A stretch of DNA of 63,716 nucleotides, counting the filler, from Sphacelaria rigidula (lineage: Eukaryota): assembly GCA_964200075.2 (NCBI GenBank). It is 10 parts of 10 records of this genome, joined end to end, with 100 filler letters (N's around TTAATTAATTAA, not from the genome) between each part and the next. Parts side by side here need not be neighbours in the genome. Positions count along the whole stretch, not along the records: positions 25,531 to 31,811 come from CAXNAA020021032.1; 9 more parts are not named here. One strand, given 5' to 3'. Positions within the stretch are counted from its first letter, which is position 1; each line of letters begins with the position of its first letter. Below the pieces are notes generated by a model. The model did no database searches. It saw only the letters and a list, made by a program, of their open reading frames with translations, and had not been told where the DNA came from. The position numbers and the translations under genes are program-made. Below are positions 12,767 through 47,720 of the stretch, piece after piece.

Positions 12767-12838
12767 CGGCTTTGTAGGTATGCGAGGTCAATGGTCTGAT
12801 GACTATGGCATGCATGATTATGAGTACACCCCCCCCCC
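12767..12838 (+). mobile_element. Poly(C)-ended retroelement 3' end, subfamily B
   Basis: CGGCTTTGTAGG.ATGCGAGGTCAATGGTC..ATGACTATGGCATGCATGAT.ATGAGTACA followed by C11. Confidence 0.8.
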
Positions 12839-18781: not shown

Positions 18782-19048
18782 GGGGAGGGGGGGGGGGGAG
18801 GGTACTCATTTGTTGCTTGCCTTAGTCGTGTGACCGTTGACCACGCATCCCTTTCGAGACGCAGCACCGTTCCTACTTCTAAGAGAGACACCTCCAACAT
18901 TCCGGCGCCCATGGCGTTTCTTCAAAAGCTCATGACGTTTCTTCCATATATCACACAAAAACCTTTTACATATCTTATCCCCGTCCTGTTTCGCCGTTTC
19001 CGGCCACCATCAATCTCCTAGTGTAGCCATCGTTTTCTCCCTACTGTC
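18782..19048 (-). mobile_element. Poly(C)-ended retroelement 3' end, subfamily A (long copy)
   Basis: The minus strand encodes ...WWPETAKQDGDKICKRFLCDIWKKR...RRNVGGVSLRSRNGAASRKGCVVNGHTTKASNK*, then GTAC and a C run. Confidence 0.85.
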
Positions 19049-19364
19049 NNNNNNNNNNNNNNNNNNNNNNNNNNNNNNNNNNNNNNNNNNNNTTAATTAA
19101 TTAANNNNNNNNNNNNNNNNNNNNNNNNNNNNNNNNNNNNNNNNNNNNGCTAGGCAGCCAGTCTACCAGGGGTTTTTGCGCGCTTGCGTTTTTTTTGCGG
19201 TAACCATCATGGTAGTCGAGGTAGATCATGTTGTGCGGCGTGGGAGAACCTCAACTCCGCACAATGGGGGTAATCGTACTAAGTAGTGTTGAAATGGTGA
19301 GGCACATATGAGGCAGTGTACAAGCCGTGGCTGTCTCAAGAAGTGACTCGTTGTAGGCTGTCAT

Positions 19365-19428
19365 CCAAATGCGAGGTCAATGATCTTGTGACTATGGCAT
19401 GCATAATCATGAGTACATCCTCCCCCCC
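19365..19428 (+). mobile_element. Poly(C)-ended retroelement 3' end, subfamily B (short)
   Basis: ATGCGAGGTCAATG...GACTATGGCATGCATAATCATGAGTACATCCTCCCCCC. Confidence 0.75.
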
Positions 19429-20749: not shown

Positions 20750-21270
20750 CGGATGAGATGATGAAAGATGAGATGATGACAGAAAAAAATGATGAAAGAT
20801 GGAATGACGACATATGAGATGATGACAGATGAGACGATGATAGATAAGATGATGATGATGGTGATGATACAAGAGATGATGACCGATGAGATGATGGCAG
20901 ATGATATGACGAATGATGAGACGAAGACAGAAGAGATGATGACAGGTGAGACGACGACATATGACATAATGAAAGATGAGATCATGACAGGTCAGATCAT
21001 GACAGGCGACCTGAGGACATATAAAATAATTATATATGACGTCATGTCAGATGACATATGAGATGATGAAATATGAGATCATGACAGGTTAGATCATGAC
21101 AGGCGACATGAGGACATATGAAATAATTATAGATGGCGTCATGTCAGATGACATATGAGATGATGAAAGATGAGATCATGACAGGTTAGATCATGACAGG
21201 CGACATGAGGACATATGTAATAATGATAAATGACGGCATGCCAGATGATGTCATGACAGATGACATCACG
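20750..21270. repeat. GATGA-rich low-complexity tract with three units of about 97 bp
   Basis: ATGAGATCATGACAGG starts units near 20976, 21074 and 21170. An (ATG/GAT)n-rich tract lies upstream. Confidence 0.85.
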
Positions 21271-21725
21271 GCAAGTTGTCGTTTCCAAACAGCACAGGGA
21301 CACTCGGCGCACTAGTTGCCGGACAGTTTTTTCGAAATGTGACCGGGCAACGACAACCCCATCCAGAACGGCAAAGATCGGCGGGGCCGGCAAGGATAGA
21401 AACAAGCGGAGACAGAAAGAGCGGCAGACAACATGGCAACAGGAAAAGAGACGCATGTCGAGAGGCAGATACACATCACACAACACACAGACAAAAAGAC
21501 GCGCAGACATACAGACGACGACATAGACTGGTAGATGAACAAAGCACGGAGAAAGGGACAAGGGACAAAAGGGACGGACACAGGGGCAGCCAGAAACACA
21601 CACGCAAACAAGACACACGGAGAGACACAGGGACCCGGATGGCCACATAGCCAAACACAAGGATACAGAACATACCGGCAAGCGGAGGAGAGAAGACAGC
21701 GACACGGGAAGCAGAGAGTACTTAC

Positions 21726-21910
21726 CTCTCCTTCCGCCGTTCTGAAAACGTAGAAGACTCCCATCCCGAAGAGGAAGGCATCCGCCAACATCATGCGATT
21801 CCGACTGCGGATCGCAGCAGTGCTAGCCCTCTCGTCCCCCCCCCCACCTCCATTCTCCCCCTCCCTCTGCGCGTCCACGATGCGATCGGAAAGGCAAGGA
21901 GGGAATGCCT
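21726..21910 (-). CDS. Possible isolated exon of an unknown gene
   Basis: Open frame ...RNRMMLADAFLFGMGVFYVFRTAEGE ending at a strong GAG|GTAAGT donor. The acceptor is uncertain and no partner exon was found. Confidence 0.3.
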
Positions 21911-22040
21911 CTGGGTCGCCGCCAGCGCACACCCCCCCACACAGAACAGAACAACAGCAAGAAGAAAAATGAGAAAATTAATGAGAAAAAATAGCAAAGA
22001 GGAAACAAAAACGGCAAGTAAGAACAATGCATGAAAGAGA

Positions 22041-22292
22041 TGACACTTTCTACGGTAGCCCCTTCCCAAAACCAGCCCAAAACTGTCACGGAGAAAATGG
22101 TCATACAGCGCCTGGAGTTTTGTTTCAGGCTGCATGAAGCGCCTCGTATAGGCGATATTGACGAGAACGAACCCAAGCGTGGGAATTTCCAGCTGCTCGT
22201 TGTGTTCGCCTTGTTTCATTTCGATATACGTGTACATTTTGGATTCCCAAACCAGCGACGTTTTTGTGGAGGCTATCGTATAGAAAGTGTCA
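22041..22292. mobile_element. Candidate 250-bp MITE
   Basis: TGACACTTTCTACGGTAGCC ... GGCTATCGTATAGAAAGTGTCA inverted termini. Confidence 0.5.
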
Positions 22293-23123
22293 GATGCAGC
22301 AAGCAAAAACAAGAAACACGAGATATACGACGCAAATGGATAACATTCAACAAATTTTCAACGGAAAAAACAGACAAAAGTGCGGGGGGGGGGGAATTTC
22401 TTTCCGTAGACAACTTATTTCGTTGTTCAAGACCGCGAGATGGCATTACTATTTCCGTTCGGCCTGGAATGCAGCAGTCGAGACACTCAAGGGTCATTGA
22501 CAAACCGTGTGTGTACCCCCCCCCCCCTTTTTCAGCTTTAAAGAGGGTGGCAGTCAGTGCAAAAGTTGGACCTGTCAGTGCTGGGCCCAAACCACTCAAC
22601 AATTGATCCCGACGCAAAGGCGACGGGCCCACAACCCATGCAGAGCATGCACACCCACGTACGTTCGCGACAAACCAAACGCGCTTTAGGGCCTACCAGC
22701 ACCGCGGGGCACAAGAGTCTCGCAGAACAACCTCTTCTGTCCGAAAATGGAGTGAGTCCACCCACCGCCACCTGCTATATTTATATTCCACCCCTTTCCG
22801 TCCATATTTTCCCCCGCTTGGTCCAAAGTCCACGCGCGTTTTACCACCATCGGCCTTCCACAGCCACCGTCTAACCCACCGACCGCACAGCAAAACCTCG
22901 AACGGCAGAAGGACGTTTCCAAAGCTTCTTTTCACCTCCTCCTACTACGGCCTGGAGACGGGGGACCCTGCCGCTAGTGTTTTCCACCCCACAAAAACAT
23001 GACCCCTACGGGGTGATTTGCCACACTGCACGACCATTGTGGGCGCACGCGCTCACGAACGACACAAGAAGTTACCAAAATTCACGAAAATAAAATGAAA
23101 CGGCACGGCAAGACTTTCCGAAA

Positions 23124-23370
23124 TTGATTGATTAATTGATTGACTGACTGATTGATTGATTGATTGATTGATTGATCGATTGATTGATCGATTGATTGAT
23201 TGATTGATGGATTGTCGCACTTTAACTGACCCCACCAAGGATTCAACCGTGATATTATTGTGGACGTGCCTAAGACAAAACAACACTGAAACACTCAGCT
23301 GCAGAAAAAATAATAATATATATATATATAACAGAACAACAGAGTAGACTAAGACGAATTCACGCAGCAC
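23124..23370 (-). mobile_element. Retroposon 3' end with a long (AATC)n tail
   Basis: About 85 bp of (GATT)n followed by GTCGCACTTTAAC.GACC. The adjoining part matches 63540-63716 (TTTCAGT.TTGTTTTGTCTT.GG.ACGTC). Confidence 0.7.
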
Positions 23371-23711
23371 AAGGATTCACTCGTCATTCACCGGCGCGAC
23401 GCGCAAGCATATCGACGCACCACGCCGTGCAGTGCGCTCTCCACGTACGAAACAATCGCACACACACACACCTTGGACGATGAATGGTCAATAGCTGCAA
23501 CAGACGAAAAAACGTACTGCGCACCGACAACAGTTTGCAATAGGATGATTCTTTACGCAGTAGATTTTTGTCGATTGCAACTATTGACCATCTGTTTTCC
23601 GGGGTATGAACAATTGTAGAAGATGATGAAGGCGCACATATAGTAATAGTGAAGCAACGTGAACTAAGACAAGCCGGCAAGACAAGGTAACTGCGCAAAA
23701 AGTAACATATT

Positions 23712-23764
23712 GGGGGGGGGGGGGGCGTACTCATTTGTTGCTTGCCTTAGTCATTTGACCATTG
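23712..23764 (-). mobile_element. Poly(C)-ended retroelement, subfamily A (very short copy)
   Basis: G14-CGTACTCATTTGTTGCTTGCCTTAGTC.TTTGACCATTG, with another G7 run just beyond the truncated end at 23773-23779. Confidence 0.8.
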
Positions 23765-26700
23765 TACCTATTGGGGGGGCATAAAAGGGTCTATTCCATT
23801 GTGACTGGCGAGACTATATCAAGTGTCGCAGTAGTCCGAGGTGGTGTGTTTTGCAAGGTATACCCGAAAGTACGGGAGTTTTGGTTCGCATACTAAACTA
23901 CACCGGCATGTGTCCCGAACAATGCAGTATGCTCCGGCAGGATACCGACCCTTGCTCCAAGCAATCCGAAATGGTTTGGAAGGGCATTTACTGATAAAAC
24001 ACCTCATTTATACCTCTGTTAATACCCTGTTAGTAATTTCAGCCGATATATCCCATAGAATACATAGTTGAAAAATTGCAAAGTGGTATTCGTTCGGAAG
24101 TTCCTCTGGGGCCTGACACATGAATGGCACGCACGTCCAGACGGATCGTGACGATTAATACTATGCCGTGCATCTCCCAGGCGACAAAAGAAGCAAGAAA
24201 TCAAGGGGGCGAGTAAAGCAGCTCGCCTGCGTCCACAAGGACGCCCACTTTGAATCGTACGGAGGAAACACAAAATAGACTTCGTTGGAAAAGGGGTTTT
24301 TACTTTGGCGATGGACGCAGTGGGAGTAAAAGGAAGCGCTGGGTACGTTCTCCGGTCGTTCGAGTTTTTGCCGTGCGATTGGTTGGACAGTGGCTGTGGA
24401 AAGCCCACGGTAGCGAAACGCGCGTAGACTCTGGACCAAAGCGGGTGAAAATACGCACATAAATGGGTGGAAGATGAACATAGTGGGTGGCGGGCGGTGG
24501 ACCCACCCCATTATGGGACAGAAGAGGGTGTTCTGCGAGGCCCTTGTGCCCAGCGGTGCTGTTTGGCCCTAAATCGCGCTTTGTTTTTGGCGAACATTGG
24601 TGTGCATGCTCTGCAAGGGCTGTGAGCGAGTCGACGCTGCGATGGGATTAATTTTTGAGTGGTTTTGGCCTAGCACGGGCACCTCCAACTTTCGCAACCC
24701 ATCACCTCCCTCGATGTGGCGGAAAAGGGGGAGAGGGTACACCCATTTGTTTTGTTCATGGACCGAAATTCAAATTCAAAGGCCCCAGTTGCTGGAGCAG
24801 AGATGGCACCAGATAAATGCCTCATATCGGAACAGAAATGGAACATCACAGCGCGATGTAACCTCCGTAGCAACCATGGCCATACCCTGGGTCTATGGAG
24901 TGCAATTATTTCACGTTTGGCTACACAGGGGGGGTGCTATTCGAGCAGTTGTTGGATGAAATACCCACCATTCATATCGAGATCACAGTTTATTCTACCA
25001 CGCGAAAATCAGGAGGAAACAGTGGACGGAGACGGTCGTCGGCGGTTGAGCTTTGCGTAGGGATACTGGCTTCGCCAGACAGAGGTACCGCGGTGGTGCT
25101 CAATGCAAATAAACTCGAATGGATTTTTTAAGGAAACATTGCACTGAAGGGTGCTTCCCAGTAAATGGCACGGTCTCGAGAGGACCTGCTGCCTGCGGTG
25201 GCGACACGCACGTCATCAGTGCGTGGGCCAAGCCCCAACTTCAAAACGCTGGCATGAGAGTGCACTCATAGAGAAAGCGTTTCGGCATTACACCAAGTCC
25301 AATCCTTGCTCCAGTAGTCAGCGTCAGAAGTATGCAGAATCCGTAATTTATTAGTTTTTCAAAGATTGTTCAAATTTGTTTTGCTTGCCACAGCTCATCA
25401 CGGTGATTGTTGGATGCCAAAAAATGCGCANNNNNNNNNNNNNNNNNNNNNNNNNNNNNNNNNNNNNNNNNNNNTTAATTAATTAANNNNNNNNNNNNNN
25501 NNNNNNNNNNNNNNNNNNNNNNNNNNNNNNGCCGTTACATACATACGTTGATTTTTAGCAACATGAAGCCGCACTGTTTCATGCATATGCAGGACACGTC
25601 ATTCCTAACCAGCCTCGTTGGTCGTTCTGGAGGCCCAGTCCCATAAGGGTTAAGATGAGGATATACCTATACACGGGCATCGCAATGACCCACTGCGGCG
25701 GCAATGCACCACTCATTGTCTGCTTGACTGCTTGCAGCTTCGTTTTTCTGCTGCTATACCATCCGCCCCGGCGTACACTACAGGTGTGACTCGAGTCTGC
25801 GAGCCGATCACAAGCATTTTTCACTACTACGTCATTCACTGCGAAGGTCGCATTTCATCGACGCTGGATTCCGCCAATTCCTCACGAGAGGGCTTCTGAT
25901 TGGTTGAAATTCACTTCTTCTACATTTCCTACCCCCATGTATGGACGTTATGCCCATTATTATTGGATCTCGGGACCTAAAACCAACAGCCTGAATCAAC
26001 CCAAAGGGAGTACCCAGATTGGGCACAGCAACTCAGCCCTTGGACCGCGAGCATGGGTCATCTGTTGAATCGGCATCATCACTTTCACCTGAATATTTAT
26101 AAACAGATAGATAGATTGCTCTGCTTTGCATCGAGCTTCCAATATTCTTTTTTTCTCTTCCTTCGTTATGATGGAAAAGGAGCATAGTGATAAATCATGC
26201 GCCGTTCTAATCTAGCAAGCTAGGGTGAGAAACAAGTGATACCGAGACGGGAAAACAGCACGCGGACAGACCAGCGACTTCAAGGAGGGCGGCAGTCACG
26301 CGCAAGGGGGTATGGGTACTGTCGCAGGTCGAAACGCGGACCGCCTTCCGCACGAGGAGAGGAAGCAAAACAGGGGGAAACAATTGATACGTACTGGTGT
26401 GCTCGTACTGAAAATGCCATGTAAGGCAGCGTCCAGTACAGGGGAAAACAATTGATACGTTATGTACTCGTACTGAAAATTCTATGTGGGTAAAAACACG
26501 CAAACAAATCACAATCGATTTATGCACACAAAATCTAGAGAATTGGGTTTCACCTTTTCCTGGCGTCGCGTCAGCGGCGAGAACCCCCCCCCCCAGAGCG
26601 CAAAACACCTCACTCTTGTACGTTTGGGTTTGTTGCGGCTCAGTATCATGCTCGGGCGAAAAACTGAAATAAGTTGACTTCGCTTAGGTGTGTGGGAAGC

Positions 26701-30832: not shown

Positions 30833-31707
30833 GTTCGCCGAGATTCGGCTACAAATGCTCATCGTTGACACATTTGACAAGTATAGCTAACACTAACCCT
30901 AACCCCAACGGAGGCACACCGAAAACCCTCAGGCGAGGGGGTGGACAGTGATACCTAGGCAAAGGGTCCGTTGCCAGACCTCAGATTGGCGCCTGAGGCG
31001 CCGATTTCGATAAAAACGCATTCTGCGCAAGCTAGGAGCACGCTCGGAGCATATCCCATTGAAGATCCGGATTTCGCTATTCACACTAAAATCAAGTCAA
31101 ACTATCTGAGAAATTTCTCACCCTCCCAGGTGGAAGGCTATACTGGGGGCGAGTCCGCGGTCTCAAGGGATCAATCGAGTTCTCGATCTCCCGCTAGAGT
31201 CTTGCATTTTAGTATCGCCGACTGGGTTGTATCCGCACTCCCGTCGAACCGCATCGACATCCTCGTTTTCAACGACAGGACTCAGATCTCATCAGAAAAA
31301 AACATCAAAATTGCATGTGCCGTCAGTCGATCCGCATTCTTCCGACCAACTTGGTTTCCGTTGTACCAATCAGACCACCACGGCGCGGCGGCAATCAAAA
31401 ACCCAATCATCAGTCGGTAACCCCCTTCAGCGTTTCATGATACTATACGAGTACTCAGCCTCCTCCGTATTCTTCCGTACGACGTGATGTGAGAAATGAC
31501 AAGTAAGGGGAATTGCTTCAATACTTCAGTACACAAAAACGCTCTGGCCTTTGCGCACATACGTGTACATACAGCTTTTCGCATATGTCATAATCCATTG
31601 TGACCTCCTCCAAAAGAATGTGATTTGGATCATGACTGGCTCGTTCGTTTCACATTTTTTGCAAGAAACCTGATCCTTCGTGATGCCGCGATAGCCCCCC
31701 CCCCCCG

Positions 31708-31811
31708 ACTATCTGTCTCGAAAGGGATGCGTGGTCAATGGTTACACGACTAAGGCAAGCAACAAATGAGTACGCCCTGCCCCCCCCCTGACTATGACAT
31801 GCATGATCATG
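31708..31811 (+). mobile_element. Subfamily A copy between two C runs, followed by a subfamily B fragment
   Basis: C run (about 31695-31706), then GTCTCGAAAGGGATGCGTGGTCAATGG..ACGACTAAGGCAAGCAACAAATGAGTACGCCCTG, then a C run, then TGACTATGACATGCATGATCATG at the contig end. Confidence 0.85.
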
Positions 31812-32557: not shown

Positions 32558-32600
<43 letters not shown>

Positions 32601-33094
32601 ACCCCCACCCAACCCCCCCGCACCTCACACACCCNNNNNNNNNNCACACACCCGCAAATACCCCTCCAACTAATTCTTAAAACCCCCCCTTTTTTTTCCA
32701 ATACTTCCCACAACCCCCCCCCCCCCCCCCCCCCCGCCTCCCCCTTCCCCCGAAAGGACGACAACTACCGCGTGAGAGTGATGCCGCGATAGGGGTGCAC
32801 GAGAATTTCTTGAGGCTTTTCACTTCGGGAGCCCCTCAATAAGGAACATCTAGGCTCAAGTGTCCAACCTCACACAAATATTGGCCTAAAAAAGACGTGT
32901 ACGTACCCCAACAATGAAATGACACTATTCATGACGTCATCCCCATCCAAAAGTCCCTAAGCTCAACAGGGTTGTGAAACGTATCAGACGTCAACCAAGG
33001 GATATTGACCAATCAGATTCCATTTTTTGTTTTCGGCAATTGAAAAATTGCGTGCCACGTCCCCCTCACCCCCCTCCCCTCTTCCTATTTCTAG

Positions 33095-34676: not shown

Positions 34677-35876
34677 CACGTCGGACAGGTCAGCTCCCTA
34701 TAGCTCGAGCTAGCTCTTTTTGAGCGTAGCTCCCTAGTGAGCTATGAGAGCTGCATGAGCTACGCATGTTTGCCCTGGATGAGCTACCAACCCGTAGCTC
34801 ATCAGCCCATATTCGTCCTGGGTGAGCTATGGGAGCTGTATGAGCTACGCACGTTTGCCCTGGGCGAGCTATGAGAGATGCATGAGCTACACATGTTTAC
34901 CCTGGACGAGCTATGAGAGCTATGAGAGCTATGAGAGCTTATCTCTTTGACCGCGAGTGTAGGAGCTCTCTCAAACGGCATCATTCACACCCGAAAATTA
35001 AAGTGAAATATGCTGATTTATCAGGTCGCTAACCGTCGCGGTCAAAGGGCTAACCCCTTGACGGCGAGCATGGGCCATCTGTTGAATCGGCTCCAATTTC
35101 ACTTGAAAAACGTATGCATGACCAGATGGACTCGTACCCTCGCGGCCAACCGATCGAAAGAAACGAATCGGTCGATTATTGTAGATACTGAATATTAATA
35201 TTTTTTCCAAGCATCCGACCAAGCGGACGAGGATATGTGTTGGCTTCTTTCATTCCTATCGCGAAGAGCGAGGCAAAACATAACAACCTAATGATACGTG
35301 GCGTCATCCGTTCGAACAAGAATGTTACATCATGAGCGACACGATGTTGGCCAGCGGCGAGCTAGGCATACGACGTGAGTGAGCCACGACAATGTGCCCC
35401 TGGGGTGAGCTACCGGGCGTAGCTCATCCGCTCACGTTTTCCCCGGGTGAGCTATGTGAGCTGTATGAGCTACACATGTTTTTCCTGAGGTGATCTATCG
35501 AGCGTAGCTCATCCGCATATGTTTTCCCTGGGTGAGCTGTAAGAGCTACATGAGCTATGCATGTTTGCCCTGGATGAGCTACCAACCCGTAGCTCATCAA
35601 CCCATATTCGTCCTGGGTGAGCTATGGGAGCTGTATGAGCTACGCACGTTTGCGATAGGTGAGCTACCAACCCGTACCTCATCAGCTGAGATTCGTCCTG
35701 GGTAAGCTATGAGAGCTTCATGAGCTACGCATGTTTGCACTGGGTGAGGTACCAAGTCGTAGCTCATCAGCGCACGTTTACCTTGTTTTGAGCTATCGGC
35801 CGTAGTTCACATGTACATGTTTGATTGCACGTGAGCTACCGCCAGCAGATGAGCTAGCTCATGAGCTGTCCTACGT
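34677..35876. mobile_element. TIR element filled with a GAGCTA-rich tandem array (intronic)
   Basis: Termini CACGTCGGACAG ... CTGTCCTACGTG, with internal GGGTGAGCTATGAGAGCT..ATGAGCTAC units. Interrupted at about 34945-35390 by other insertions. Confidence 0.7.
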
Positions 35877-36989
35877 GTGAAAAGATCTCAGATCATGCGA
35901 CATGTGTTTGCTGCCGACTAAGGTCAAGGCAATGTTCGATTGTTTTACACTGCTTTGCTCACGTGTTCTCGTGACAGTGCAGGCATAACCGGTGTCTTCT
36001 TCCCAAAAAAACGAGAACGCGACACAGAAAAATCACGGGAAAAAAAATACCCCGCCAAAACTCATGCTGTTTCAACTTATTAGTGATCTTCAACATGCTT
36101 TTGTGGACTGTTGGGATCGCATAACTGGCACCACAGTACGCAGATATGACGGTGTCAGAGGCTTCACGTCAAAACTAAAGGATAAGGGATCTCAGATCAT
36201 TCGACTTGTCTTTGCTGCTGGCTTAAGGCCAAGGCAATATACGGTTGTTTCCGACTGCTTTGCTCTCATGTTCTCATACCGTTCGCTGCATAACCGCTGT
36301 CTTCGTGTTACCAAATCAACGGGAACGCAAAGAAAATTACGGTGAAAAAGTACCCCGCCATGAACAGGCTTTTGTGGTTCGGGATTCTGTTTCAAGTTTT
36401 CCATCATCTTGAGGAGGCTTTTGTAGTTCGGGATCGACACCCCGCGAAAAAAGAGCTAATTTGGACGACTTTCGGTGGCCAGAACACGCGCCACAGCCAT
36501 CAGATGACGCCCCAACCTGAACGGTTATGTACCGCTGCGCCTTCTTCGTGCGCTGCATTAGAAAGCGCGGGATAAAATGCCTTGCTGCCAGAGAAACTCG
36601 GCAGAAGTGGTGAAAAATGTGAAATGATGCATGTACATATACATATGGTGAGAATCTAACACGCTTCACATCCTCTTAGGGGGAATATCAGACGTGACAA
36701 ACATCACCACTACCACCGAAAAAGCAAGAGCGACAATAACCACAAAATCATCACACCCAAACGACAACCAACAGCAAGACACAGCAAGAAACAGCAACAG
36801 GCAACAACCCACATGAAGAACAATTGGGACTACGACAACAATAAACAAACAACAAACCAATAACAACAACAACAACAACGTCACCGACAGTGGATGATGA
36901 CAATTTTAACATAACTATCATCACCACCACCAACAGCTGCCGCTCAACTACGAGTCCACTACTCCATGAACACCCCCCTTCCCCCCTCC

Positions 36990-37225
36990 CATCTCCACGG
37001 GGACGATGGCTCTATGAGGAGATAGATGGTGGCCACAGACGGCGAAACAGGACGGGGGATAAGATATGTAAAAGGTTTTTGTGTAATATATGGAAGACAC
37101 GTAATGAGCGCCGGAATGTTGGAGGTGTCTCTATCAGGAGTAGGAACGGTGCTTGGTCGCGAAAGGGATAGGTGGTCAATGGTCAAACGACCACGGCAAG
37201 CAACAAATGAATACTCCCCCTCCCC
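36990..37225 (+). mobile_element. Poly(C)-ended retroelement, subfamily A (long copy, intronic)
   Basis: Encodes GDKICKRFLCNIWKTRNERRNVGGVSIRSRNGA.SRKG and ends CAACAAATGAATACTCCCCCTCCCC. A C-rich tract also lies upstream at 36973-36996. Confidence 0.85.
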
Positions 37226-37259
37226 GGCTCCACGCGTGCAAGCATGCCCACAAACATAC

Positions 37260-37387: not shown

Positions 37388-38111
37388 CTGGAGGGCCGGT
37401 TGGTACCAAAAAGTCGCAAGAAACAAAAGAGATGAGAGAGAGGTACATATATAAAAAGGCCAACATGCAAAACAAGAAATATCCGTCATTAGGTGAAAGT
37501 GAGAATCAGGGCGGATCTCCGTCCCGAACACACACACCTACATACGGGCAGATATTCCGTCCTTCCGCATGCTTCCAAGAATGATACTCATGGCACGGAT
37601 GTACCGTCACATTGAGTCATCATCCATTTCCATAATCAAAGTACTGCCTTACTCCGAGGATGGGAAAGGGTTACCCCATAACTCACGTCGGCCACTCACA
37701 TCGTCCTCCTCACCCGAGGCCTCATCTACCTCCACACCAACACACACTGGAGCATGACACTGGAATATGACACACACATCCTCGTCTCCGTGGCAAAGAT
37801 CCCGTCACCCACGTTGTGCCTACTCCCCACGGGTGGTACCCCTCATGAGAATACAGAAAAATGAAAACAATCCATGGTAGCAGTAGCAGCAGCAGTAGCA
37901 ATTGTTGCTGCTGCTGCGTGTGGTCATACTCTGGCGTTGTACAAAGACAAGAAGCGTGAGAAGAAAACAAGAACGACCAGTGACAGCCACAGGCTACTGT
38001 AGTATACCAAAAGTATGAGCGCAAAAGTGCAAGTACAACTAAACTTCAGCTATGACAACCAGCCAAACAGACTATTATATTATATATTTAGCTAGTGCTT
38101 GCCGAAGGGCA

Positions 38112-38192
38112 GGAGGGAGGGGGGCGTGTACTCATGATCATGCATGCCATAGCCATAACACCATTGACCTCGCATCCCTACAAAGCCGGGAC
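38112..38192 (-). mobile_element. Poly(C)-ended retroelement 3' end, subfamily B
   Basis: GGAGGGAGGGGGGCGTGTACTCATGATCATGCATGCCATAG...CCATTGACCTCGCATCCCTACAAAGCCGGGAC running to the contig end. Confidence 0.8.
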
Positions 38193-39622: not shown

Positions 39623-39672
39623 GGGGGGGCGTACTCATGCGTTGCTTGCCTTAGTCGTTTGACCATTGACCA
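39623..39672 (-). mobile_element. Poly(C)-ended retroelement, subfamily A (50-bp copy)
   Basis: G7-CGTACTCATGCGTTGCTTGCCTTAGTCGTTTGACCATTGACC. Confidence 0.75.
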
Positions 39673-41179
39673 TGGCAGCACAAGTGTAAATCTCACATGA
39701 GCAATCTTTAAATCGGTTCAGAAACCGGAAACGTCAAACAGACGCATGAAACGCCGATCATGTGAGAGGCCTTGCAATATTGCTTGTATGAAATCTCTCC
39801 ACATGTATCATTAGTGCGCGCGCAACCTCCCCTCTCTATCCCCTAACGCGCATGAAGATGCGAGTGAACACGGTCCCGGCACCCCCACTTAGACAAACGT
39901 TCCTATCATGTACAATCTAAGTTCCTCCAGTACCTTCAAGAGAAAAAATTCATCGTTTTCCACCGAGTGGAAATATTGAATTCACGGTTGTCCTCATGTT
40001 TCAGACAACGTTCCACACGCAACAATTACCAAATTCAATACACTCGTTACTCTGCTTTTAAATATTTTAGCATATCAGTACATGACAGCCTCACAGTTTT
40101 AGAGGAATCTCGGTTTACCAAACCCTGGACCCGCACTCGACCCTAGCGCTAACAAGTCACAGTGCGATGGATATCCTGCTGGACTCTTGAGAATTCTTCG
40201 TACTTTTCACCCGTTTGATCTTGGGTAGAAGAACTGAGCATGCTCCAAAAATATTTGCTATAGGCACGAAGAACTTTGAGCCATAGGGAACCCCTGCCGG
40301 CCACCCCACCTCTCCGCATCCCGTGACCCCGCCTGTGTAGCCAACTACTCCTCTACAGCACCCCCCTTGCCTTACCCCGCCTGTTGCTGCTGCACAGCTG
40401 TGCTTGATCAAAGTCACTGGACGAGAATACCTCAGCTACCTCGTTTCCGCCACTAGGATCTGCCGTACAAGAGAGCATGACGGTTGCAATGGGAGTCTGG
40501 TGGTGAGAACATACACAGTACAACAGAAACATCGCAAGGTTTCTGACTTTGGTATGACAGGGGTGTTATGGACCCGAATCAGATCTTTCTGGGCGTACCC
40601 TTATCCGCGCCCGTCGGAGGATGATGACAACGGAGAAGGATGGTGCGAGCCACACCACTCTCAACATCGGCGGCCTACCCCACGGAGTTCTTCGGCAAAA
40701 AATAGCATTTCAATGACAAGGGATGTCATGGCAACAGGGAAGTACCACGTAGTATAATAGGACGGCATGAGCCAAAAAATGGGCAATGCAGACATGACAC
40801 ACTAGAAGACTTTACCATCTGAGAGGCGCAACACGGCAACACCAAGAACGGCGAATAGAAATGCCTAGGGGCAACCAACAGCACCACAGGATACGATTGT
40901 AGTGGAGGAGACCCAAGTCTACACCTTGTGCCAGGTGCGGCAATCCACAGCGCAACCGTGGGTGATGCGGAGAGTCGGCAGCGCTTACCTCATCATACAA
41001 AATGACAAGCGATAGTCGCAAGCAAAAATGTCGCTCTACCTCAACCCTCCCGTCCCGGTCAGACAAAACGTTCTGGTAAACACACCACCTCGAGCAGTAA
41101 GTAATCCATAACGTCGGTCCTTGTTGCCCAACTCTACCGCGTGCACATGAACCTTGCGAAACACGCTAGCTTCTACACC

Positions 41180-43690
41180 TCACTCTCCACTCGTCCTAGA
41201 CAACCTCCTCACCTCCTCGCCCAGGGACACTCCACACCCCAACCCCTTCTCCACGGCACCCCCCTGACCAAACGCCCCCGGCCACAGCCATAGCCACCGT
41301 TTCAGCTCACGTCCAACACCTCCCCTCTCTCCTAGAACACCCATCTCGGCAAGGGCGGCAGTGACCAACTGAGAGCAGAGGTACGTCGGTGAAATCGCTG
41401 CTTTTTCGCCTTGCTCGGTACATTTAGAACCCTCGTCGTTGCATCCCCTTTTGACTCCACCATCGTGTAACCGGGCTGGCTCCGCGCCCCTCCTTTGCCG
41501 GAAGCTACAATCGCTGCGGGTCGACACGTGCGCGTCTGGAAATGCGCTGTTTTCCCTTATCTCTATGCCTGCTCTATCTACCAAGTTGTGCTCACTACTG
41601 GTACGAGGTGTCAACTTGTCAGAGGATGGACAGTGCTCATCCCCTCGCAACTCCGTCCCGCCACCTCTCCATTCATTGGGCGTTTGGGATGTTGATGGAA
41701 GCGCCTTTGGTGGAAGGTCAAGATCTGGTGGAGCTAATAGTGATTCTGCTGGAGGTGCCCTGTCAGCGGGAAATTCGGGTCCCGATGAAGGAAGCGGGAG
41801 AGCAACACCGTAGGCCTGCGGTGGCCACGGCGGGAGCACGGACAGGCGAGCGTGGTGTAGGGAAGACAGAGGCCAAAAGGGTTTCAACAGAGAAGGTAGA
41901 TTACTTTTAGTTGTGCGTGACAATCATCCTCAACTATTATCGCTGTGGACAGAAGTGGCCAGCAATCTCCTGATTGGTCAACACTCCTTGATCGACGGCT
42001 GACGATAGTCGTTGCCTTTTGGACCGGAGAGACTTTTGAACGCGAATAAACGGCAGGCGGGAGATTCTCATTTGGACCAGTTCTTTTCTGGAGAGGGGAG
42101 GGCGGCGTTCTCGAGAGCCTTTTGGCCGAACGTGAACCTGACGCCGCTCAACAAAGTGGCACTAACTTTTGGGATTGATGAAAAAAAGCAGGCAGCTCTG
42201 ATTCGCCGAGGAAACTCCATCACGTGCAGTGTCCTTAGACAGCCTGGGAGGGAAAGAAAGGAACCCAGGAACTAGAGTCGAGACAAGGGGTAGTACGGCA
42301 CCACTACGTATACATAACTGGATAGGTGCAAGTTGCCCGAACTCAGAACCCAGAAAACACCAAAACAGGCAGCACACTCTGGCTGCAGTTGGTAGGGTGG
42401 ACGTTGTAATTACAGAGAGACAAGGTAGCCCAGACATGAAATCTCCAACGCGCGTCACATACACATGAGATGGCAGAATACCCAGCAAGGAATATTCTTC
42501 GATTGCCGAGTGACTGACGAAATCGAAACAAACTTGATACCCGGGTGCGAGAGACAAGAAACGGTTCAGAGGCGCACACGATCGCTCGCCTGACGCAAGG
42601 GGTCCACGGACTGTGGGTAAGCAGGACTTCAATGGTATGGTGTTAAGGATCCACGAATCATGACGATCGAGCTAAAGAAGCGAGGCCAGTCTGCGAGATC
42701 GGTATGCACCCTCAACGCACACCAGCGTGTGAAGAAGAGCTCCACCACGCCTTCAGAACACAACACTACCATCTCCTTTCCACACTTCACTCCTCCTTCT
42801 GGAACACCGAACCTGACCATCAAGCACCTCCTCCCCTGCCCCCAACGAGGCAGTGTGTAACCCATGGCTGTCTCCGGAAGTGACGATACCAGAAAATGAA
42901 GCAACTCATCGGAAGCTACCATCCATATTCCAGATAATCAGTACGCTTCAGGCCGAACGATTAGGTTGCAGTTCACCCTTCACGCGACTCAACGAAGGCA
43001 TCGCGGCGCTTCGCGCTTGGTGATGGGTTGCGAGCCTGATCCGGCAAAAACGCGGCGTACTCTGTCCCGGCATTGTAGGAATGAAAGGCCAATGGTCTAA
43101 TGACTACGGCATGCAATATCATGAGTACACCATGCCACATACACAGAACAGAACGAAAGGGACAAAACTCACCATTCCCTCCACCTGCCGCGCAAATTTC
43201 GCCAGGCGACGCCGGGACTCGACCGGACGGGGACACTCCAGTCTCCGAAAAGCCACTCTTGTTGCGAAACCCTGATCCTGGTAGGCCCGTACCCGTTCCA
43301 CGAGGGGATACCTTCGAACTCCATCCTTGGTGCTTTCTAACAGCTCCAGCGGTTGCCCTGGGCTGCGCGACACAGCCTGCCAAATAAGCGTCAACGGTTC
43401 ACATGGAGTTGTGTTCAGTGAGAAAGCGTCCGAAATTTCGGGAAAACACTGCCTTTGGATATACGCACTGTAGATTCTTGCTTCACGCTAGACAACGTTG
43501 AAGATGTGCAGATACTTGGCGAGTGTGACGTGAAAGCATGCTTTGGAGCGAGCCAGGGTTGCGGCGTTCGGATCTGCCCATCTTTGTACAACGCCCCTTC
43601 ACTTCCATTGTTCTTTCATCGCAGAAGTGGGCAGGCATCACCTGGGGGTGTCGCGAGCAGAACAGATTCAAGAGTTCCCGTGACAAACTC
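41180..43690 (-). mobile_element. Possible heavily decayed LTR retrotransposon (gag-like remnant)
   Basis: Intronless broken reading frames with gag-like LLHFLVSSLPETAM and DWPRFFSSIVMIRGSL, and a TGTCACG start near 43685. No catalytic motif recognised. Confidence 0.3.
43060..43130 (+). mobile_element. Poly(C)-ended retroelement 3' end, subfamily B (diverged, C run eroded)
   Basis: GTCCCGGCATTGTAGGAATG..AGGCCAATGGTCTAATGACTACGGCATGCAATATCATGAGTACACC. Confidence 0.7.
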
Positions 43691-44543: not shown

Positions 44544-44573
44544 GGGGGGGGTGTACTCATGATCATGCATGCC
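44544..44573 (-). mobile_element. Poly(C)-ended retroelement 3' end, subfamily B (at contig end)
   Basis: G8-TGTACTCATGATCATGCATGCC. Confidence 0.75.
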
Positions 44574-47514
44574 NNNNNNNNNNNNNNNNNNNNNNNNNNN
44601 NNNNNNNNNNNNNNNNNTTAATTAATTAANNNNNNNNNNNNNNNNNNNNNNNNNNNNNNNNNNNNNNNNNNNNAAACCTTCGTGACCGGTACCTGCGATC
44701 CCAACACTACATATATATAAAGTTAATACCATACGAAGCGTTGAAGAGCATGGCTTCATAGCCTCATTTTCTAACACCTCATCTCGGAGTTGATTCTCAA
44801 TTCGCATAATTTGTTGTTATATTTGTAATGAACCATGCACAACTAACAGCAAGGACTTGGGCAACGGTATTCATTGCTCCGAACCACCTTTCACCATGAA
44901 ACTGCCGTGGCTGTTGGTATGAAAGGAAGAGACAGGGAACGAGTAAAAAACCATATTCCTAGGGTTAGTCCGGTGCTCTGGAGTGTGATATAATGAATCA
45001 TTTCATTATTTCACGGAACAAAAAAGGTGCTCTTGGGTGCGGGGGAATTCTGCAACGCTCATCGTGTAAATTTTGTGCAACAAGACCCACTAGCATTGCC
45101 GGGGGAGAAATGGTCATCGCCCCATGTTTCTTCATCCTCCGACCAAAAACTACAACTAACGATTTGTCGCAGCTCATCCATGACTACCACAACCACAGCA
45201 TATATACCCATGTATATCGGGAATTCCCGTACCCACGCATCTTGCATATATCATATTTGTAAGGTATTCTCCCGATTGAGGATTTTGCAGACACCATCCG
45301 CGACCTTCACTCGAGTATATCGCTCGAAATAAAAAGATCGTAGTGAGACATTTTCCTCGTCACGAGATATCTTGCGATTCGTTACAGAGACTGGAGCGAT
45401 ACGGAACGGCCGAGCTCCAAGACCTGAGGTACGGCATCTTCGGGAAAGCCGCGTACTGGAAGCCAGCGAATTTTCGACAGATACCTGTAATATTTATGGA
45501 TATAGGTGACCACTTTGGGACAAACAGAACCGTTGTTCATGGACGACGCACTCTACCAATGCACGTGACACAAAAGAAGACACGTAATCGCCGACAATTT
45601 CCTCCTAATCCCGCACCACATCCGCCATCACTCACGAGTACTCCATGGCCTGGTGGCGTTCCTCGTTCACGTGGACAGTCGACGATAGGAGCAAGGGGAC
45701 GGAATCGATCCAGGACACGAACGACAGCTGTCCACAGCGCGCGAAAACCATATCCCCTCGCTTCTTCGCTTCCAACCCGCGGCTCTGCCAAAAATTTAAC
45801 GCGCCAGCCACTCCCGCCCTGTTCTTCCGAACAGTCCCCACGCTGAAAATGCCGTGCGTGAGGAGTCACAGCTGAAGCATGGGGGAGGTGAAGACGTTGT
45901 CCATGGCAACATGCACCCCGGTGTGCTCGAGCTGCGGCCCGAACTTATCACAGGCTTTTAAAAGGACGTACAGAACCATTCGGGTTGTGCGACCGAGAGG
46001 GCAGTTGGCCCATTCGCCTAGGTGGCAGTCCCCTTCGAAGCCAGCGTCCACAACGCTCACGAAACAATATTCTGTCCGGCAACATACCGCCCACACCTTG
46101 ATACCTGCCAGACGCGCGAGGGTAGCAAACCAGCATTTTGGACTATACTGTGTCACTCACTTTCTTCTGTGCCAACAAGCTCTGTCCGCAAGTTTTCGCG
46201 GAATGTTTTGCAGAATCATGAGCACCCGACCGTACACCGCGTTCAGTAGAGGGCGATGGCATGCTGAGGTGTTGGTGTCGTTGTGCCCGGCGCAGACATG
46301 CGGCGCACATACTGACCCCGCACTCAATCGAGTGTGGGGTCTAAATCGGTCAGGGGTCCTCGGGGATTGCTTGTGACATAAACACGCAACATTCATGCGA
46401 ACACAGCTGTTCTAAACTTCAAATTCCGTCATCTGCGATGTCTGCCCACCTCACGTTGACTTCACCCCATGTCCCAGTCAATGGCGGTTCGGCAAAACAA
46501 AAAAAATGATGCGGCGGTTGGAAGATGGAAATGAGTGCGGCGGCGGTGTGAATGACTGTACCAAGACATCCCCACATCCGTCCTGTAACTCCCCCCCCCC
46601 CTTGACGGCAGCAATTACGTTTTGGGAGCCACTGTGGAAATGTCGCCTACTATTGCTGACTGGGAGCCGTAAGAAGCGACATGCGTTCATTTTTACCTCG
46701 GATTTTTTCGGCTCCCCCCCCCCGATCACCCGCCATCGGTGTCAATACTACGGCACGCAACATCACGAGCACACGATCCGGCAGCCGTCTCCATCCTCCA
46801 AAACATTGTTTGGCATGGTGTGAAGCGTTTTGACATTTGCCAGAGACGAAAACCGGCGAGCAGCGGTGTCGCGGCGTCAGCTGCAGTCACACGGATGGGG
46901 TAAGTCACAAGGAGGGAGGTTCCCCGGAAAGATGAGAAGATCCCCTACTCAGGAGTTGCGGTATACATAATGCTAAGAAGGCCTTCTTCGGGCGACTGCA
47001 CATGAACGTGGGCTTTTCGGGCTGCTCTATGCGCAATAAAGGCCACACGATGTCATATTTATCGCGCTCTCGCGAACGGAGACCAACACACGTCATCTTT
47101 GCTCGATCACCTCCCGGTTGTGCGAGCTTCTTGCACGAAACGAGACCGTAATCGTTATTGCAAACAAAACATGTAGCACTCGCCGTGTTTGATGGGCTTG
47201 TTCTTGTTGGACCTGATGAAGAAGTGGGCAACCCTTGCAGTGCACTTCATCATCTGCTCATCGAAGGCTATCCACAACCCGACCTCGGCAGCCTCACTCC
47301 ACGCCCCATTCAGTATTTCCTTCAGTCTCCTGTGGAGCGAAAGAGGGTTAGGAGGGGGTGTTCTGTGTTACGATGGGGGGTGCCAGCGTCCGGGTTCTGC
47401 GCACAGACATCCTCGCATCCAAAACGACCAGAGGCCGGTGGTGGCAACCCCAGGACAGATGTGATATCAAGTCTGGTTCTCGGTCATGTTTGGGCTGTTT
47501 TACCACGAAGTCGA

Positions 47515-47720
47515 GGGGGGAACGGGGGACGCGTATTCGCTTGTTGCTTGCCTTCGTCGTTTGACCGTTGACCACGAATCCCTTTCGAGACGGAGCACCG
47601 TTTGTACTCCTAATGAAACCACCTTCGACACTCGGATGCTCATTACGTTTCTTCTATGCATTATTACAAAACCCTTGGCATATCCAATGCCCGTTCTGTT
47701 TCACCGTCTGGGCCAAACAT
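47515..47720 (-). mobile_element. Poly(C)-ended retroelement, subfamily A (diverged), inside a PGBD intron
   Basis: GGGGGAACGGGGGACGCGTATTCGCTTGTTGCTTGCCTT.GTCGTTTGACCGTTGACCACG.ATCCCTTTCGAGAC... Confidence 0.8.

What the first reader, a model, noticed from the sequence alone, without database searches (positions are those of the whole stretch)
31695..31811. High-copy non-LTR retroelement ending in poly(C), apparently targeting C homopolymers
Seen: 12 copies in 6 of the 10 contigs (A: 18782, 23712, 31708, 36990, 39623, 47515; B: 12767, 19365, 31790, 38112, 43060, 44544). They share one fixed end, ...ATGAGTAC plus a C run (eroded at 43060, cut by the contig end at 31790). The other end is truncated at variable points, giving copies of about 50-260 bp. 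Three copies (23712, 31708, 36990) also have a C run at the truncated end, and at 31790 a B copy starts directly in the C run of an A copy. Established: a fixed 3' end with random 5' truncation is the signature of target-primed reverse transcription; LINE tails are normally poly(A) or short tandem repeats; some Tx1-clade elements target microsatellites. Inference: this is a LINE family that inserts into, or is tailed with, poly(C). I know of no description of such specificity but cannot search for one.
Basis: partly seen in the sequence, partly recalled or inferred. Interest (0 to 1): 0.85.

Follow-up and report, generated by a model that had tools for sequence, protein, structure and literature searches.

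The report
LINE retrotransposon that targets poly(C) runs
These short repeats are the broken-off tail ends of a very abundant jumping gene (a LINE) of a brown-alga-like genome that, unusually, lands at runs of the letter C instead of carrying the usual poly(A) tail.

Summary
All 12 listed copies exist. They form two related subfamilies, A and B. All share one fixed end, ...ATGAGTAC plus one base, followed by a C run. Their other ends are cut at variable points, giving copies from 22 nt (cut by a contig end) to at least 247 nt.

Longer copies fetched from public assemblies show what the element is. It is an APE-endonuclease plus reverse-transcriptase LINE with a single ORF of about 1360-1380 codons. 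The stop codon is the TGA inside ATGAGTAC, so the 3' UTR is only about 5 nt.

Three of the five A copies with a visible 5' junction have target-site duplications of 11-19 nt that begin with the C run. The background for such a run at a junction is 0.85% of positions (p about 6e-6). The C run is therefore at least partly the target.

The likely mechanism parallels L1, with G/C in place of T/A. The nicked (G)n strand primes on a C-ended, read-through RNA. This step is inferred.

Contigs of four sequencing runs show hundreds of further 3' junctions that run into C tracts and then into unrelated flanks.

The clade is unresolved. No RNA evidence and no empty-site evidence was obtained. Seven literature searches found no report of a poly(C)-targeting LINE.

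Verdict: a real element and a new variant of a known kind.

The parts
18802..19048 (-). A copy 1. It covers the last 247 nt of the LINE ORF and end, and is cut by the contig end at 19048. The C-rich run that follows lies at 18780-18801 (C12 at 18787-18798).
   Evidence: E 1e-26; tblastn, P0001 residues 1288-1360
23708..23779 (-). A copy 2. The 43-nt body lies at 23726-23768. It is flanked by a perfect TSD, C7+AATA at 23769-23779 (5' side) and C14+AATA at 23708-23725 (3' side).
   Evidence: (E 1e-9). In read laying, hundreds of contigs diverge at both edges.
31695..31795 (+). A copy 3. The 62-nt body lies at 31713-31774. The TSD is C12+GACTAT at 31695-31712 (5' side) and an interrupted C run +GACTAT at 31775-31795 (3' side). 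The 3' TSD copy overlaps the first 6 nt of B copy 9, so this is a nested insertion.
   Evidence: (E 8e-18)
31790..31811 (+). B copy 9. It is 5'-truncated, starts right after a C run, and is cut by the contig end.
   Evidence: (E 0.7, only 22 nt)
36977..37236 (+). A copy 4. The 213-nt body lies at 37003-37215. A decayed TSD of about 19 nt begins with a C-rich run, at 36981-36999 (5' side) and 37216-37234 (3' side). By my count it matches at 15 of 19 positions without gaps. Three extra G lie at 37000-37002.
   Evidence: (E 4e-24)
39623..39673 (-). A copy 5. The 44-nt body lies at 39630-39673 and C7 at 39623-39629. No TSD or C run is recognisable at the 5' junction.
   Evidence: (E 1.3e-10)
47505..47715 (-). 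A copy 6. The 184-nt body lies at 47532-47715 and is diverged. An interrupted C-rich run follows at 47505-47531. No clear TSD.
   Evidence: (E 1.6e-22)
12767..12838 (+). B copy 7. It is cut by the contig start. The body lies at 12767-12828 and C10 at 12829-12838.
   Evidence: (E 3e-15)
19369..19428 (+). B copy 8. The 49-nt body lies at 19369-19417, followed by TCCT+C7. The 5' edge is set by 33-113 contigs per run that continue with B-family upstream sequence at 19369.
   Evidence: (loose ends at 19369)
38105..38192 (-). B copy 10. It is cut by the contig end. The body lies at 38128-38192 and a C-rich run follows at 38105-38127.
   Evidence: (E 1.4e-15)
43055..43129 (+). B copy 11. At least 75 nt, with the 5' edge not defined. 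The C run is eroded.
   Evidence: (E 8.2e-17)
44544..44573 (-). B copy 12. The last 22 nt of the element are cut by the contig end. C8 lies at 44544-44551.
46714..46775 (+). Possible 13th, degenerate B-like copy at 46734-46772, with C10 at 46714-46723 on its 5' side. Weak.
   Evidence: (E 0.023)

Best explanation
The repeats are 5'-truncated, dead-on-arrival copies of a very abundant APE-type non-LTR retrotransposon (LINE). Two subfamilies, A and B, are present.

The full element has one ORF of about 1360-1380 codons. It encodes an N-terminal region, an APE endonuclease, a reverse transcriptase and a C-terminal CCHC knuckle. In subfamily A the stop is the TGA inside the terminal ATGAGTAC, so only about 5 nt separate the stop from the C run.

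The element integrates by target-primed reverse transcription at C homopolymers. The endonuclease nicks the bottom strand at the edge of the (G)n tract. The freed (G)n 3' end pairs with C residues at the 3' end of the element RNA. Those C residues are most likely supplied by transcription reading through into the C run that flanks the donor copy. Reverse transcription then starts at the fixed terminus. The second nick falls 11-19 nt downstream, so the C run plus a few more bases is duplicated on both sides.

Each insertion therefore turns one C run into two. This explains the nested and tandem copies.

Shown: LINE identity, the fixed 3' end, 5' truncation, C-run-containing TSDs and high copy number.
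Inferred: where the first nick falls, G-run priming on a C-ended RNA, read-through as the source of the RNA's C tail, and a cis-acting role for the last 60 nt or so.
For: LINE identity:
- 3 of the 4 loci fetched with a 20-nt 3'-end pattern (L001-L003) extend the repeat upstream into an RT ORF. L004 is a chance match.
- L005 has an intact ORF at 999-5147 that matches P0001 over residues 1-1360 at 88% identity (best segment).
- P0001 and P0002 carry Exo_endo_phos, Exo_endo_phos_2 and RVT_1.
- The best solved relatives are human L1 ORF2p (6.6e-21) and R2 (8.8e-20).
- P0001, P0002 and the Ectocarpus model P0003 all end ...ASNK at the same stop.

C run at the 3' end:
- It is present in 10 of the 11 window copies whose 3' end lies within a contig, and in 4 of the 4 homologous loci from independent assemblies, as C8, C10, an interrupted run and C13.
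- In Logan contigs of four runs, 847, 340, 114 and 764 contigs leave the window at 23712. Their consensus is a G run (the C run in element sense) followed by non-agreeing sequence.
- 490, 343, 190 and 499 contigs continue beyond 23764 with upstream LINE sequence.
- Summed depth over the copy is about 1.5 million against about 25 for unique DNA in X1.

Target:
- TSDs that begin with the C run occur in 3 of 5 A copies.
- A C>=6 run within 14 nt upstream is found at 0.85% of positions. The binomial p is 6e-6 for 3 of 5 and 2e-5 for 3 of 7.
- There is a nested A-into-B insertion at 31695-31811. Contigs also show copy, C run, copy again: 'goes back' joints in up to 8 contigs per run.

Extra constraint on the terminus:
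- The last 60 nt have the highest pairwise identity of fifteen 60-nt windows among the 4 long copies, 0.958 against 0.74-0.91.
- A and B keep these nucleotides although B has an in-frame TAG or a frame change just upstream.
Against: - 2 of the 5 A copies (39630, 47532) show no C run or TSD at the 5' junction. Nor does the B copy at 19369. The 5' edge of the B copy at 43055 is not defined, and no C run lies in the roughly 100 nt upstream of it that I inspected.
- No contig with an empty site was seen. The contigs of all four runs break at the copy.
- No RNA evidence shows that transcripts end in C.
- No 5' end of a full-length copy was found, so no full-length TSD is available.
- The predicted hairpin in the last 50 nt has 0 covarying pairs. 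The fold is no better than shuffles (z -0.55 for A, +0.99 and -0.31 for B).
- 26 of the 35 C>=7 runs in the window are not next to a recognisable copy. The genome's wealth of C runs is therefore not explained by this family alone.
- The 3' C run is longer than the 5' one in only one clean case (14 against 7). A templated tail as opposed to slippage is therefore not settled.
Confidence: 0.75

Rival explanations
1. The C run is only a tail carried or added at the 3' end, like poly(A), and insertion sites are unselected. The C runs at 5' junctions would then be coincidence.
For: The 3' run is longer than the 5' run at copy 2 (C14 against C7). 4 of the 7 visible 5' junctions have no C run.
Against: In 3 copies the C run plus 4-9 further bases is repeated at both ends. 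A TSD that merely followed a tail would not put a C run upstream of the element. The background for such a run is 0.85%, giving p about 6e-6 to 2e-5. No eukaryotic activity that adds poly(C) to RNA is known to me (recalled).
Confidence: 0.07
2. There is pure target preference and no C tail on the RNA. The endonuclease or RT selects C runs, reverse transcription starts exactly at ...GTAC(G/A), and every C at the 3' junction comes from the target.
For: TSDs begin with the C run. At copy 3 the 5' and 3' runs each have 12 C (C12 at the 5' side; CCC, TG, C9 at the 3' side), and at copy 4 both are short C-rich runs broken by T. R2-type elements start at a precise 3' end without pairing to the target (recalled).
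Against: At copy 2 the 3' run is C14 against a 5' run of C7. The loose-end consensus of hundreds of contigs continues as G beyond the window's own 14. This hints at variable extension, though slippage could produce the same result.
Confidence: 0.15
3. The short copies belong to a non-autonomous SINE that merely shares the LINE's 3' end.
For: Most window copies are under 250 nt. The copy number is very high.
Against: The 5' ends differ in every copy and there is no shared head. The longer copies are colinear with the LINE ORF at protein level right up to the contig end. Contigs that leave the window at 23764 continue with LINE coding sequence. There is no Rfam family match anywhere in the window, so no tRNA, 5S or 7SL head.
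Confidence: 0.02
4. The fixed ends are terminal inverted repeats of a DNA transposon or MITE, or the C runs are a sequencing or assembly artefact.
For: 5 of the 20 contig ends lie inside copies. Homopolymers are hard to sequence.
Against: A and B align in the same sense. The RT ORF runs through the 'terminus'. The C runs are internal with unique flanks, are duplicated as TSDs, and recur in four independent assemblies. Contig breaks at a high-copy repeat are to be expected.
Confidence: 0.01

Closest known systems
Mammalian L1 (APE-type LINE; nick at TTTT/AA, T run primes on the poly(A) tail). The mechanism is recalled, not tested here.
   Same: It has APE plus RT plus a C-terminal CCHC, frequent 5' truncation and TSDs of 10-20 nt. 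A homopolymer at the nick matches the homopolymer at the RNA 3' end, so the TSD begins with that homopolymer. Human L1 ORF2p is the best solved relative of the RT (6.6e-21).
   Different: - The homopolymer is C/G, not A/T, and it cannot come from polyadenylation.
- L005 has one long ORF and no ORF of 70 aa or more upstream of it on the same strand.
- The stop codon lies about 5 nt from the end, so there is almost no 3' UTR.
- R2 scores almost as well as L1 (8.8e-20), so L1-clade membership is not shown.
Simple-repeat-specific LINEs. Togen with (TG)n and HERO families are taken from passages of PMC4640811. Dong (TAA)n, Waldo/Mino and Kibi/Koshi are recalled.
   Same: The target repeat is found on both sides of the insert. 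The 3' 'tail' equals the target repeat. Read-through RNA that pairs with the nicked repeat is the usual model.
   Different: - The target is a mononucleotide C run, which I have not seen listed as a LINE target.
- Togen, Dong and HERO encode a restriction-like endonuclease, while this element has an APE.
- Specificity looks like a preference, not a strict rule.
- Clade placement is untested.
'Stringent' LINEs that recognise their own 3' end (for example L2/UnaL2-type, CR1; recalled).
   Same: There is a fixed, conserved 3'-terminal block. The last 60 nt are the most conserved part among 4 long copies. ATGAGTAC is shared by A and B.
   Different: No stem-loop is supported (0 covarying pairs, z -0.55). 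In subfamily A the block is also coding sequence.
LINEs annotated in brown algae as Jockey, RTE, L1 and CRE (Saccharina japonica genome paper, PMC4421812, passages read).
   Same: These are probably the same pool of elements. Close relatives are annotated only as 'unnamed protein product' in Ectocarpus sp. CCAP 1310/34 (P0003, P0121 and others).
   Different: The passages I read say nothing about tails or targets. I could not see that paper's supplements or any repeat library.

Membership tests
Non-LTR retrotransposon (LINE), APE type | A reverse transcriptase is encoded upstream of the shared 3' end. | tested here: met
   RVT_1 at E 2.8e-33 in L001 and 3.1e-31 in L002, in ORFs that run into the repeat. 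L005 has an intact ORF at 999-5147.
Non-LTR retrotransposon (LINE), APE type | An apurinic-type endonuclease domain lies N-terminal of the RT. | tested here: met
   Exo_endo_phos at 3.4e-12 and 8.1e-15, and Exo_endo_phos_2, in P0001 and P0002. L005 matches P0001 over residues 1-1360.
Non-LTR retrotransposon (LINE), APE type | A fixed 3' end with variable 5' truncation. | tested here: met
   In all 11 copies whose 3' end lies within a contig, the element ends within about 1 nt of the same terminus (the copy at 31790-31811 is cut first). Copy lengths are 43, 44, 49, 62, 184, 213 and at least 75 nt, plus 5 copies cut by contig ends.
Non-LTR retrotransposon (LINE), APE type | Target-site duplications flank the insert. 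| tested here: met
   3 of the 5 A copies with a visible 5' junction have TSDs of 11, about 15 and about 19 nt. None was found for the other 2 A copies or for the B copy at 19369; the 5' edge of the B copy at 43055 is not defined.
Poly(A)-tailed LINE (L1-like tail) | A poly(A) tail at the 3' end. | tested here: not met
   No copy ends in an A run. A C run follows the terminus in 10 of 11 window copies with the 3' end in view and in 4 of 4 homologous loci.
Simple-repeat-targeting LINE (functional class) | The same simple repeat is found at both junctions as part of the TSD. | tested here: met
   3 of 5 A copies, against a background of 0.85% (p about 6e-6).
   No labelled LINE reference set was at hand. 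PDB, Atlas and two homologue searches gave no clade label.
R4 / NeSL / HERO repeat-specific LINEs | A restriction-like endonuclease C-terminal of the RT (feature taken from PMC4640811 passages). | tested here: not met
   The endonuclease is an N-terminal APE.
RTE clade | A short ORF of about 1000 aa without a C-terminal CCHC knuckle (recalled definition). | tested here: not met
   The ORF has 1328-1382 codons. A C-x-C-x8-H-x4-C motif is read by eye near the C-terminus of P0001 and P0002.
SINE | A shared 5' head derived from tRNA, 5S or 7SL, with an internal promoter. | tested here: not met
   No Rfam family match in the window. The 5' ends all differ, and the copies are colinear with the LINE ORF.
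DNA transposon / MITE | Terminal inverted repeats in inward-facing pairs, with TSDs. | tested here: not met
   A and B align in the same sense. The RT ORF runs through the terminus.

The most novel reading that the evidence does not exclude
A widespread brown-algal LINE lineage has replaced the L1 pairing logic (T run with poly(A)) by G run with poly(C).

It has almost no 3' UTR. Its last 50-60 nt serve at once as coding sequence for a conserved C-terminal peptide and as the cis-acting site where reverse transcription starts. That peptide is a GCVVNG-type motif, kept in relatives of only 40-50% identity.

The C tail is inherited by read-through from the donor's flank. Because every insertion duplicates its C-run target, the family breeds its own landing sites. 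This would help explain why long homopolymers in this genome are mostly C/G: 15 C/G runs of 10 nt or more against 3 A/T runs.
Probability: 0.4. Interest if true: 0.7.

Novelty: new variant of a known kind. Interest (0 to 1): 0.55.

Why it matters
LINE tails and targets are known as poly(A), short tandem repeats or specific multicopy genes. A lineage keyed to C homopolymers would add a new case to the rule that the nicked target pairs with the RNA's 3' end. It would also be a natural test of that rule, because the tail cannot be made by polyadenylation.

The family appears to be among the most abundant repeats of this alga. Close relatives exist in Ectocarpus. It breaks short-read assemblies: 5 of the 20 contig ends here lie in copies. 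It may also shape the homopolymer content of brown-algal genomes.

A LINE whose stop codon sits 5 nt from its end is also a compact system for asking how an RT recognises its own RNA.

Tried and rejected
- No whole genome is held for the window, so no genome-wide census of TSDs or empty sites was possible.
- Rfam on the whole window gave 0 matches.
- Pfam on the 36 stop-to-stop ORFs of 150 aa or more in the window found no RT. The window holds only truncated tails.
- Viral contigs: a protein scan and a B-pattern scan both found nothing.
- The MAG that holds L005 has only that one copy.
- The look-up of sequencing runs listed no holder on record as RNA.
- Read laying on 19149-25430: no contig bridges copy 2 and no empty-site form was seen. 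The contigs of all four runs stop at the repeat. Several 'skip' joints that link the B end at about 19417 to the A end at about 23716 rest on 1-3 contigs with sides of 19-29 nt. I could not interpret them.
- RNA structure of the 3' end: 11 predicted pairs, 0 with compensatory change. z-scores were -0.55, +0.99 and -0.31. No structure is claimed.
- Clade assignment failed. PDB does not separate L1 from R2. The Atlas gave only generic names. Two homologue searches returned no clade-labelled protein.
- The 5' end of the full-length copy L005 was not found in the 1067 nt upstream of the protein match, 998 nt upstream of the stop-to-stop ORF. A 62-nt tandem repeat lies at L005 1-151.
- Which frame B uses at its end is not settled. 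The A-like frame has a TAG one codon before GCEVNG in the 3 copies that reach it. Another frame ends 33 nt before the C run.
- Literature searches found no poly(C)-tailed or (C)n-targeting LINE. Passages read in PMC4640811, PMC4421812, PMC12592211 and PMC3627910 did not mention one. The library lacks Repbase Reports and most subscription journals, and I saw no supplements.
- Earlier-findings look-ups returned nothing.

Full report
LAYOUT AND OBSERVATION

The window is ten contigs of 6281-6283 nt joined by N spacers. Near-equal lengths suggest consecutive contigs of a fragmented assembly; this is inference.

- A profile of the shared end finds ten at E <= 1e-9.
- It also finds the 22-nt stub at 31789-31811 at E 0.7.
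- The stub at 44552-44573 is found by pattern and by eye.

The copies fall into two homologous, same-sense subfamilies.
- A ends ...GGCAAGCAACAAATGAGTAC(G).
- B ends ...GGCATGCATGATCATGAGTACA.

A C-rich run follows the terminus in 10 of the 11 copies whose 3' end lies within a contig. It is eroded at 43130. The B copy at 31790-31811 is cut by the contig end before its terminus. The 5' ends all differ, giving 43, 44, 49, 62, 184, 213 and at least 75 nt. Five copies are cut by contig ends.

The terminus plus C occurs 7 times against 0.83 expected, and 0 of 100 shuffles reach that. A weak thirteenth candidate lies at 46734-46772 (E 0.023).

WHAT THE ELEMENT IS

The window itself holds no RT. Pfam on the 36 ORFs of 150 aa or more found none.

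A scan of public metagenome contigs with a 20-nt pattern from the A end returned four loci.
- L004 shares only the 20-mer.
- L001, L002 and L003 extend the repeat upstream.
- In L001 and L002 a 671-codon frame, open at the edge of the DNA held, carries RVT_1 (2.8e-33 and 3.1e-31). It runs to the TGA inside ATGAGTAC.
- L003 is the same element with a broken frame.

A homologue search gave full-length proteins P0001 (1360 aa, 80% identical) and P0002 (1328 aa, 73%). Both have Exo_endo_phos, Exo_endo_phos_2 and RVT_1. It also gave Ectocarpus sp. CCAP 1310/34 gene models (P0003, later P0121 and others). P0001, P0002 and P0003 all end ...ASNK.

A contig in a bin labelled 'uncultured bacterium' (L005) holds a complete copy.
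- It has one ORF at 999-5147 and no ORF of 70 aa or more upstream on that strand.
- The ORF is followed by GTACG and C13.

The window's A copies align to the last 17-73 residues of P0001.

So the 'repeat' is the C-terminal coding end of a single-ORF, APE-type LINE with a 3' UTR of about 5 nt. The host is most likely a brown alga or a close relative. This rests on the only named homologues being from Ectocarpus and on runs labelled 'algae metagenome'. It is inference.

THE C RUN IS AT LEAST PARTLY THE TARGET

Five A copies have a visible 5' junction.
- Copy 2 (23726-23768): C7+AATA upstream and C14+AATA downstream. This is a perfect 11-nt TSD.
- Copy 3 (31713-31774): C12+GACTAT upstream and an interrupted C run +GACTAT downstream. 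The downstream GACTAT is also the first six bases of a 5'-truncated B copy. The A element therefore inserted into the C run that preceded an older B copy.
- Copy 4 (37003-37215, about 80% identical to the other long copies): a decayed TSD of about 19 nt that starts with a C-rich run. By my count it matches at 15 of 19 positions without gaps.
- Copies 5 and 6 show no TSD. Nor does the B copy at 19369. The 5' edge of the B copy at 43055 could not be set.

A C>=6 run ending within 14 nt upstream is found at 0.85% of all positions on both strands. Three of five gives p = 6e-6, and three of seven gives p = 2e-5. If a TSD merely followed a tail, there would be no C run upstream of the element. Insertion into C runs is therefore shown for these copies.

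GENOME-WIDE SUPPORT

Logan contigs of four runs from different samples were laid on 19149-25430.
- Summed depth over copy 2 is about 1.5 million in X1, against about 25 for neighbouring unique DNA. This is not a copy number, but it shows a very abundant repeat.
- At 23712, just past the C run, 847, 340, 114 and 764 contigs (X1, X3, X4, X5) leave the window. Their consensus is a further G run and then sequence that does not agree, meaning many different flanks.
- At 23764, the truncation point, 490, 343, 190 and 499 contigs continue with the LINE's upstream coding sequence.
- At 19369, 73, 113, 33 and 93 contigs continue with B-family upstream sequence.
- 'Goes back' joints from 23764 to 23712/23715 occur in up to 8 contigs per run. 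They show copy, C run, copy again. This is the arrangement expected if new copies land in the C runs of old ones.

No contig bridged an empty site.

The C run also follows the terminus in all four homologous loci from independent assemblies, which were not selected for it.

THE TERMINAL BLOCK

Among L001, L002, L003 and L005, the last 60 nt have the highest mean pairwise identity of fifteen 60-nt windows, 0.958 against 0.74-0.91.

A and B keep most of these nucleotides, including ATGAGTAC. Yet B differs by 5 nt just upstream. In the A-like frame, B has a TAG one codon before the conserved block in all three copies that reach it.

Relatives of only 40-50% identity still end with a GCVVNG...AMAA-type peptide after a highly variable stretch.

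I read this as a constraint on the RNA or DNA end itself, in addition to or instead of one on the peptide. This is inference. A hairpin is predicted, but no pair covaries and the fold is no better than shuffles.

MECHANISM

The best-supported model is target-primed reverse transcription in which the bottom strand is nicked at the edge of the (G)n tract. Three observations support it:
- The 3' TSD copy begins right after the fixed terminus.
- The TSD runs from the C run to 4-9 nt beyond it.
- The 3' run can be longer than the 5' one (C14 against C7).

By analogy with L1 (recalled), the G run would pair with C residues at the RNA's 3' end. With the stop codon about 5 nt from the element's end, I saw no room for a terminator or polyadenylation signal (inspection only, not tested). 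The simplest source of those C residues is therefore read-through into the donor's flanking C run, as proposed for simple-repeat-specific LINEs. Nick position, priming and read-through are all inferred.

Each insertion doubles its target. This fits the nested copies and the excess of long C/G homopolymers:
- 15 C/G runs of 10 nt or more, against 3 A/T runs.
- 35 C/G runs of 7 nt or more (20 C, 15 G), against about 6 expected from shuffles.

However, 26 of those 35 runs are not beside a recognisable copy.

RIVALS

- A pure tail with unselected targets is contradicted by the TSDs.
- A pure target preference with no C on the RNA cannot be excluded. I give it 0.15.
- SINE, TIR transposon and artefact readings fail. 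The evidence against them is colinearity with the ORF, same-sense alignment, unique flanks and recurrence in independent assemblies.

COMPARISON AND NOVELTY

The element works like L1 with the homopolymer changed, and like the simple-repeat-specific LINEs. It is not shown to belong to any named clade.
- PDB scores L1 ORF2p and R2 almost equally.
- No labelled references were available.
- It has an APE, so it is not of the R4/NeSL/HERO type.
- Its long ORF with a CCHC knuckle does not fit RTE as I recall that clade.

Seven full-text searches found no LINE with a poly(C) tail or (C)n target. Nor did passages of four papers. The Saccharina genome paper (PMC4421812, passages read) lists Jockey, RTE, L1 and CRE LINEs in brown algae without describing their ends. 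Repeat libraries and supplements were not visible to me, so prior description cannot be excluded.

VERDICT

- Observation: confirmed.
- Interpretation: supported.
- Novelty: a new variant of a known kind.
- Confidence in the overall explanation: 0.75. LINE identity is near certain, C-run targeting is about 0.85, and the priming details are about 0.5.
- Interest: 0.55.

Noticed in passing
window 32559-32600, 32714-32735, gap 32635-32644: Very long C runs (C42 and C22) flank a 10-N scaffold gap. No recognisable LINE end lies beside them.
   Followed up: partly
window contig ends at 12767, 19048, 31811, 38192, 44573: 5 of the 20 contig ends fall inside copies of this LINE end. This is as expected if the assembly breaks at a high-copy repeat or at C/G homopolymers.
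   Followed up: partly
window 19149-19358, 22089-22298, 25239-25430: Three other stretches of contig 4 have summed contig depths of 2e5 to 1e6, against about 25 for unique DNA. They are further very abundant repeats, not identified.
   Followed up: no
window 20728-21271 and 17619-17822: A 15-nt-period array rich in GATGA-like units, and a 12-nt-period array (GTGGGAGCTGAC-like). Both lie inside long open frames, so they may be coding low-complexity repeats.
   Followed up: no
window 34737-35836 and 54842-55283: Tandem arrays with periods of about 85 nt and about 41 nt.
   Followed up: no
window 831-1520(+) and 47664-48203(-): Weak, sub-threshold Pfam hits to integrase core (rve, E 0.0049) and a piggyBac-like DDE transposase (DDE_Tnp_1_7, E 0.0007). 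These are probably relics of other mobile elements. The second abuts A copy 6.
   Followed up: no
window 40762-40926(-): A 57-residue match (40% identity, E 4.5e-5) to the C-terminal part of a different LINE protein (P0017). No tail was recognised downstream.
   Followed up: partly
window 37000-37002: Three extra G lie between the 5' TSD and the start of A copy 4. They may be untemplated bases added at the end of reverse transcription.
   Followed up: no
L005 (whole locus): A complete eukaryotic LINE sits on a 5259-nt contig of a bin labelled 'uncultured bacterium', so it is likely a mis-binned algal contig. It is the only copy in that bin. A 62-nt tandem repeat at 1-151 may be part of the 5' UTR.
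   Followed up: partly
L006 3600-7600: Fragmented, stop-ridden LINE relics (42-55% identity to this superfamily's RT) lie on a 2.56-Mb, 60% A+T contig labelled as a Nitrospirales MAG. The label or the binning looks doubtful.
   Followed up: partly
P0003 (Ectocarpus sp. CCAP 1310/34 gene model): This 1927-aa model joins LTR-retrotransposon-type domains to the last 450 residues or so of this LINE's ORF. It is probably a chimeric gene prediction across nested elements.
   Followed up: no
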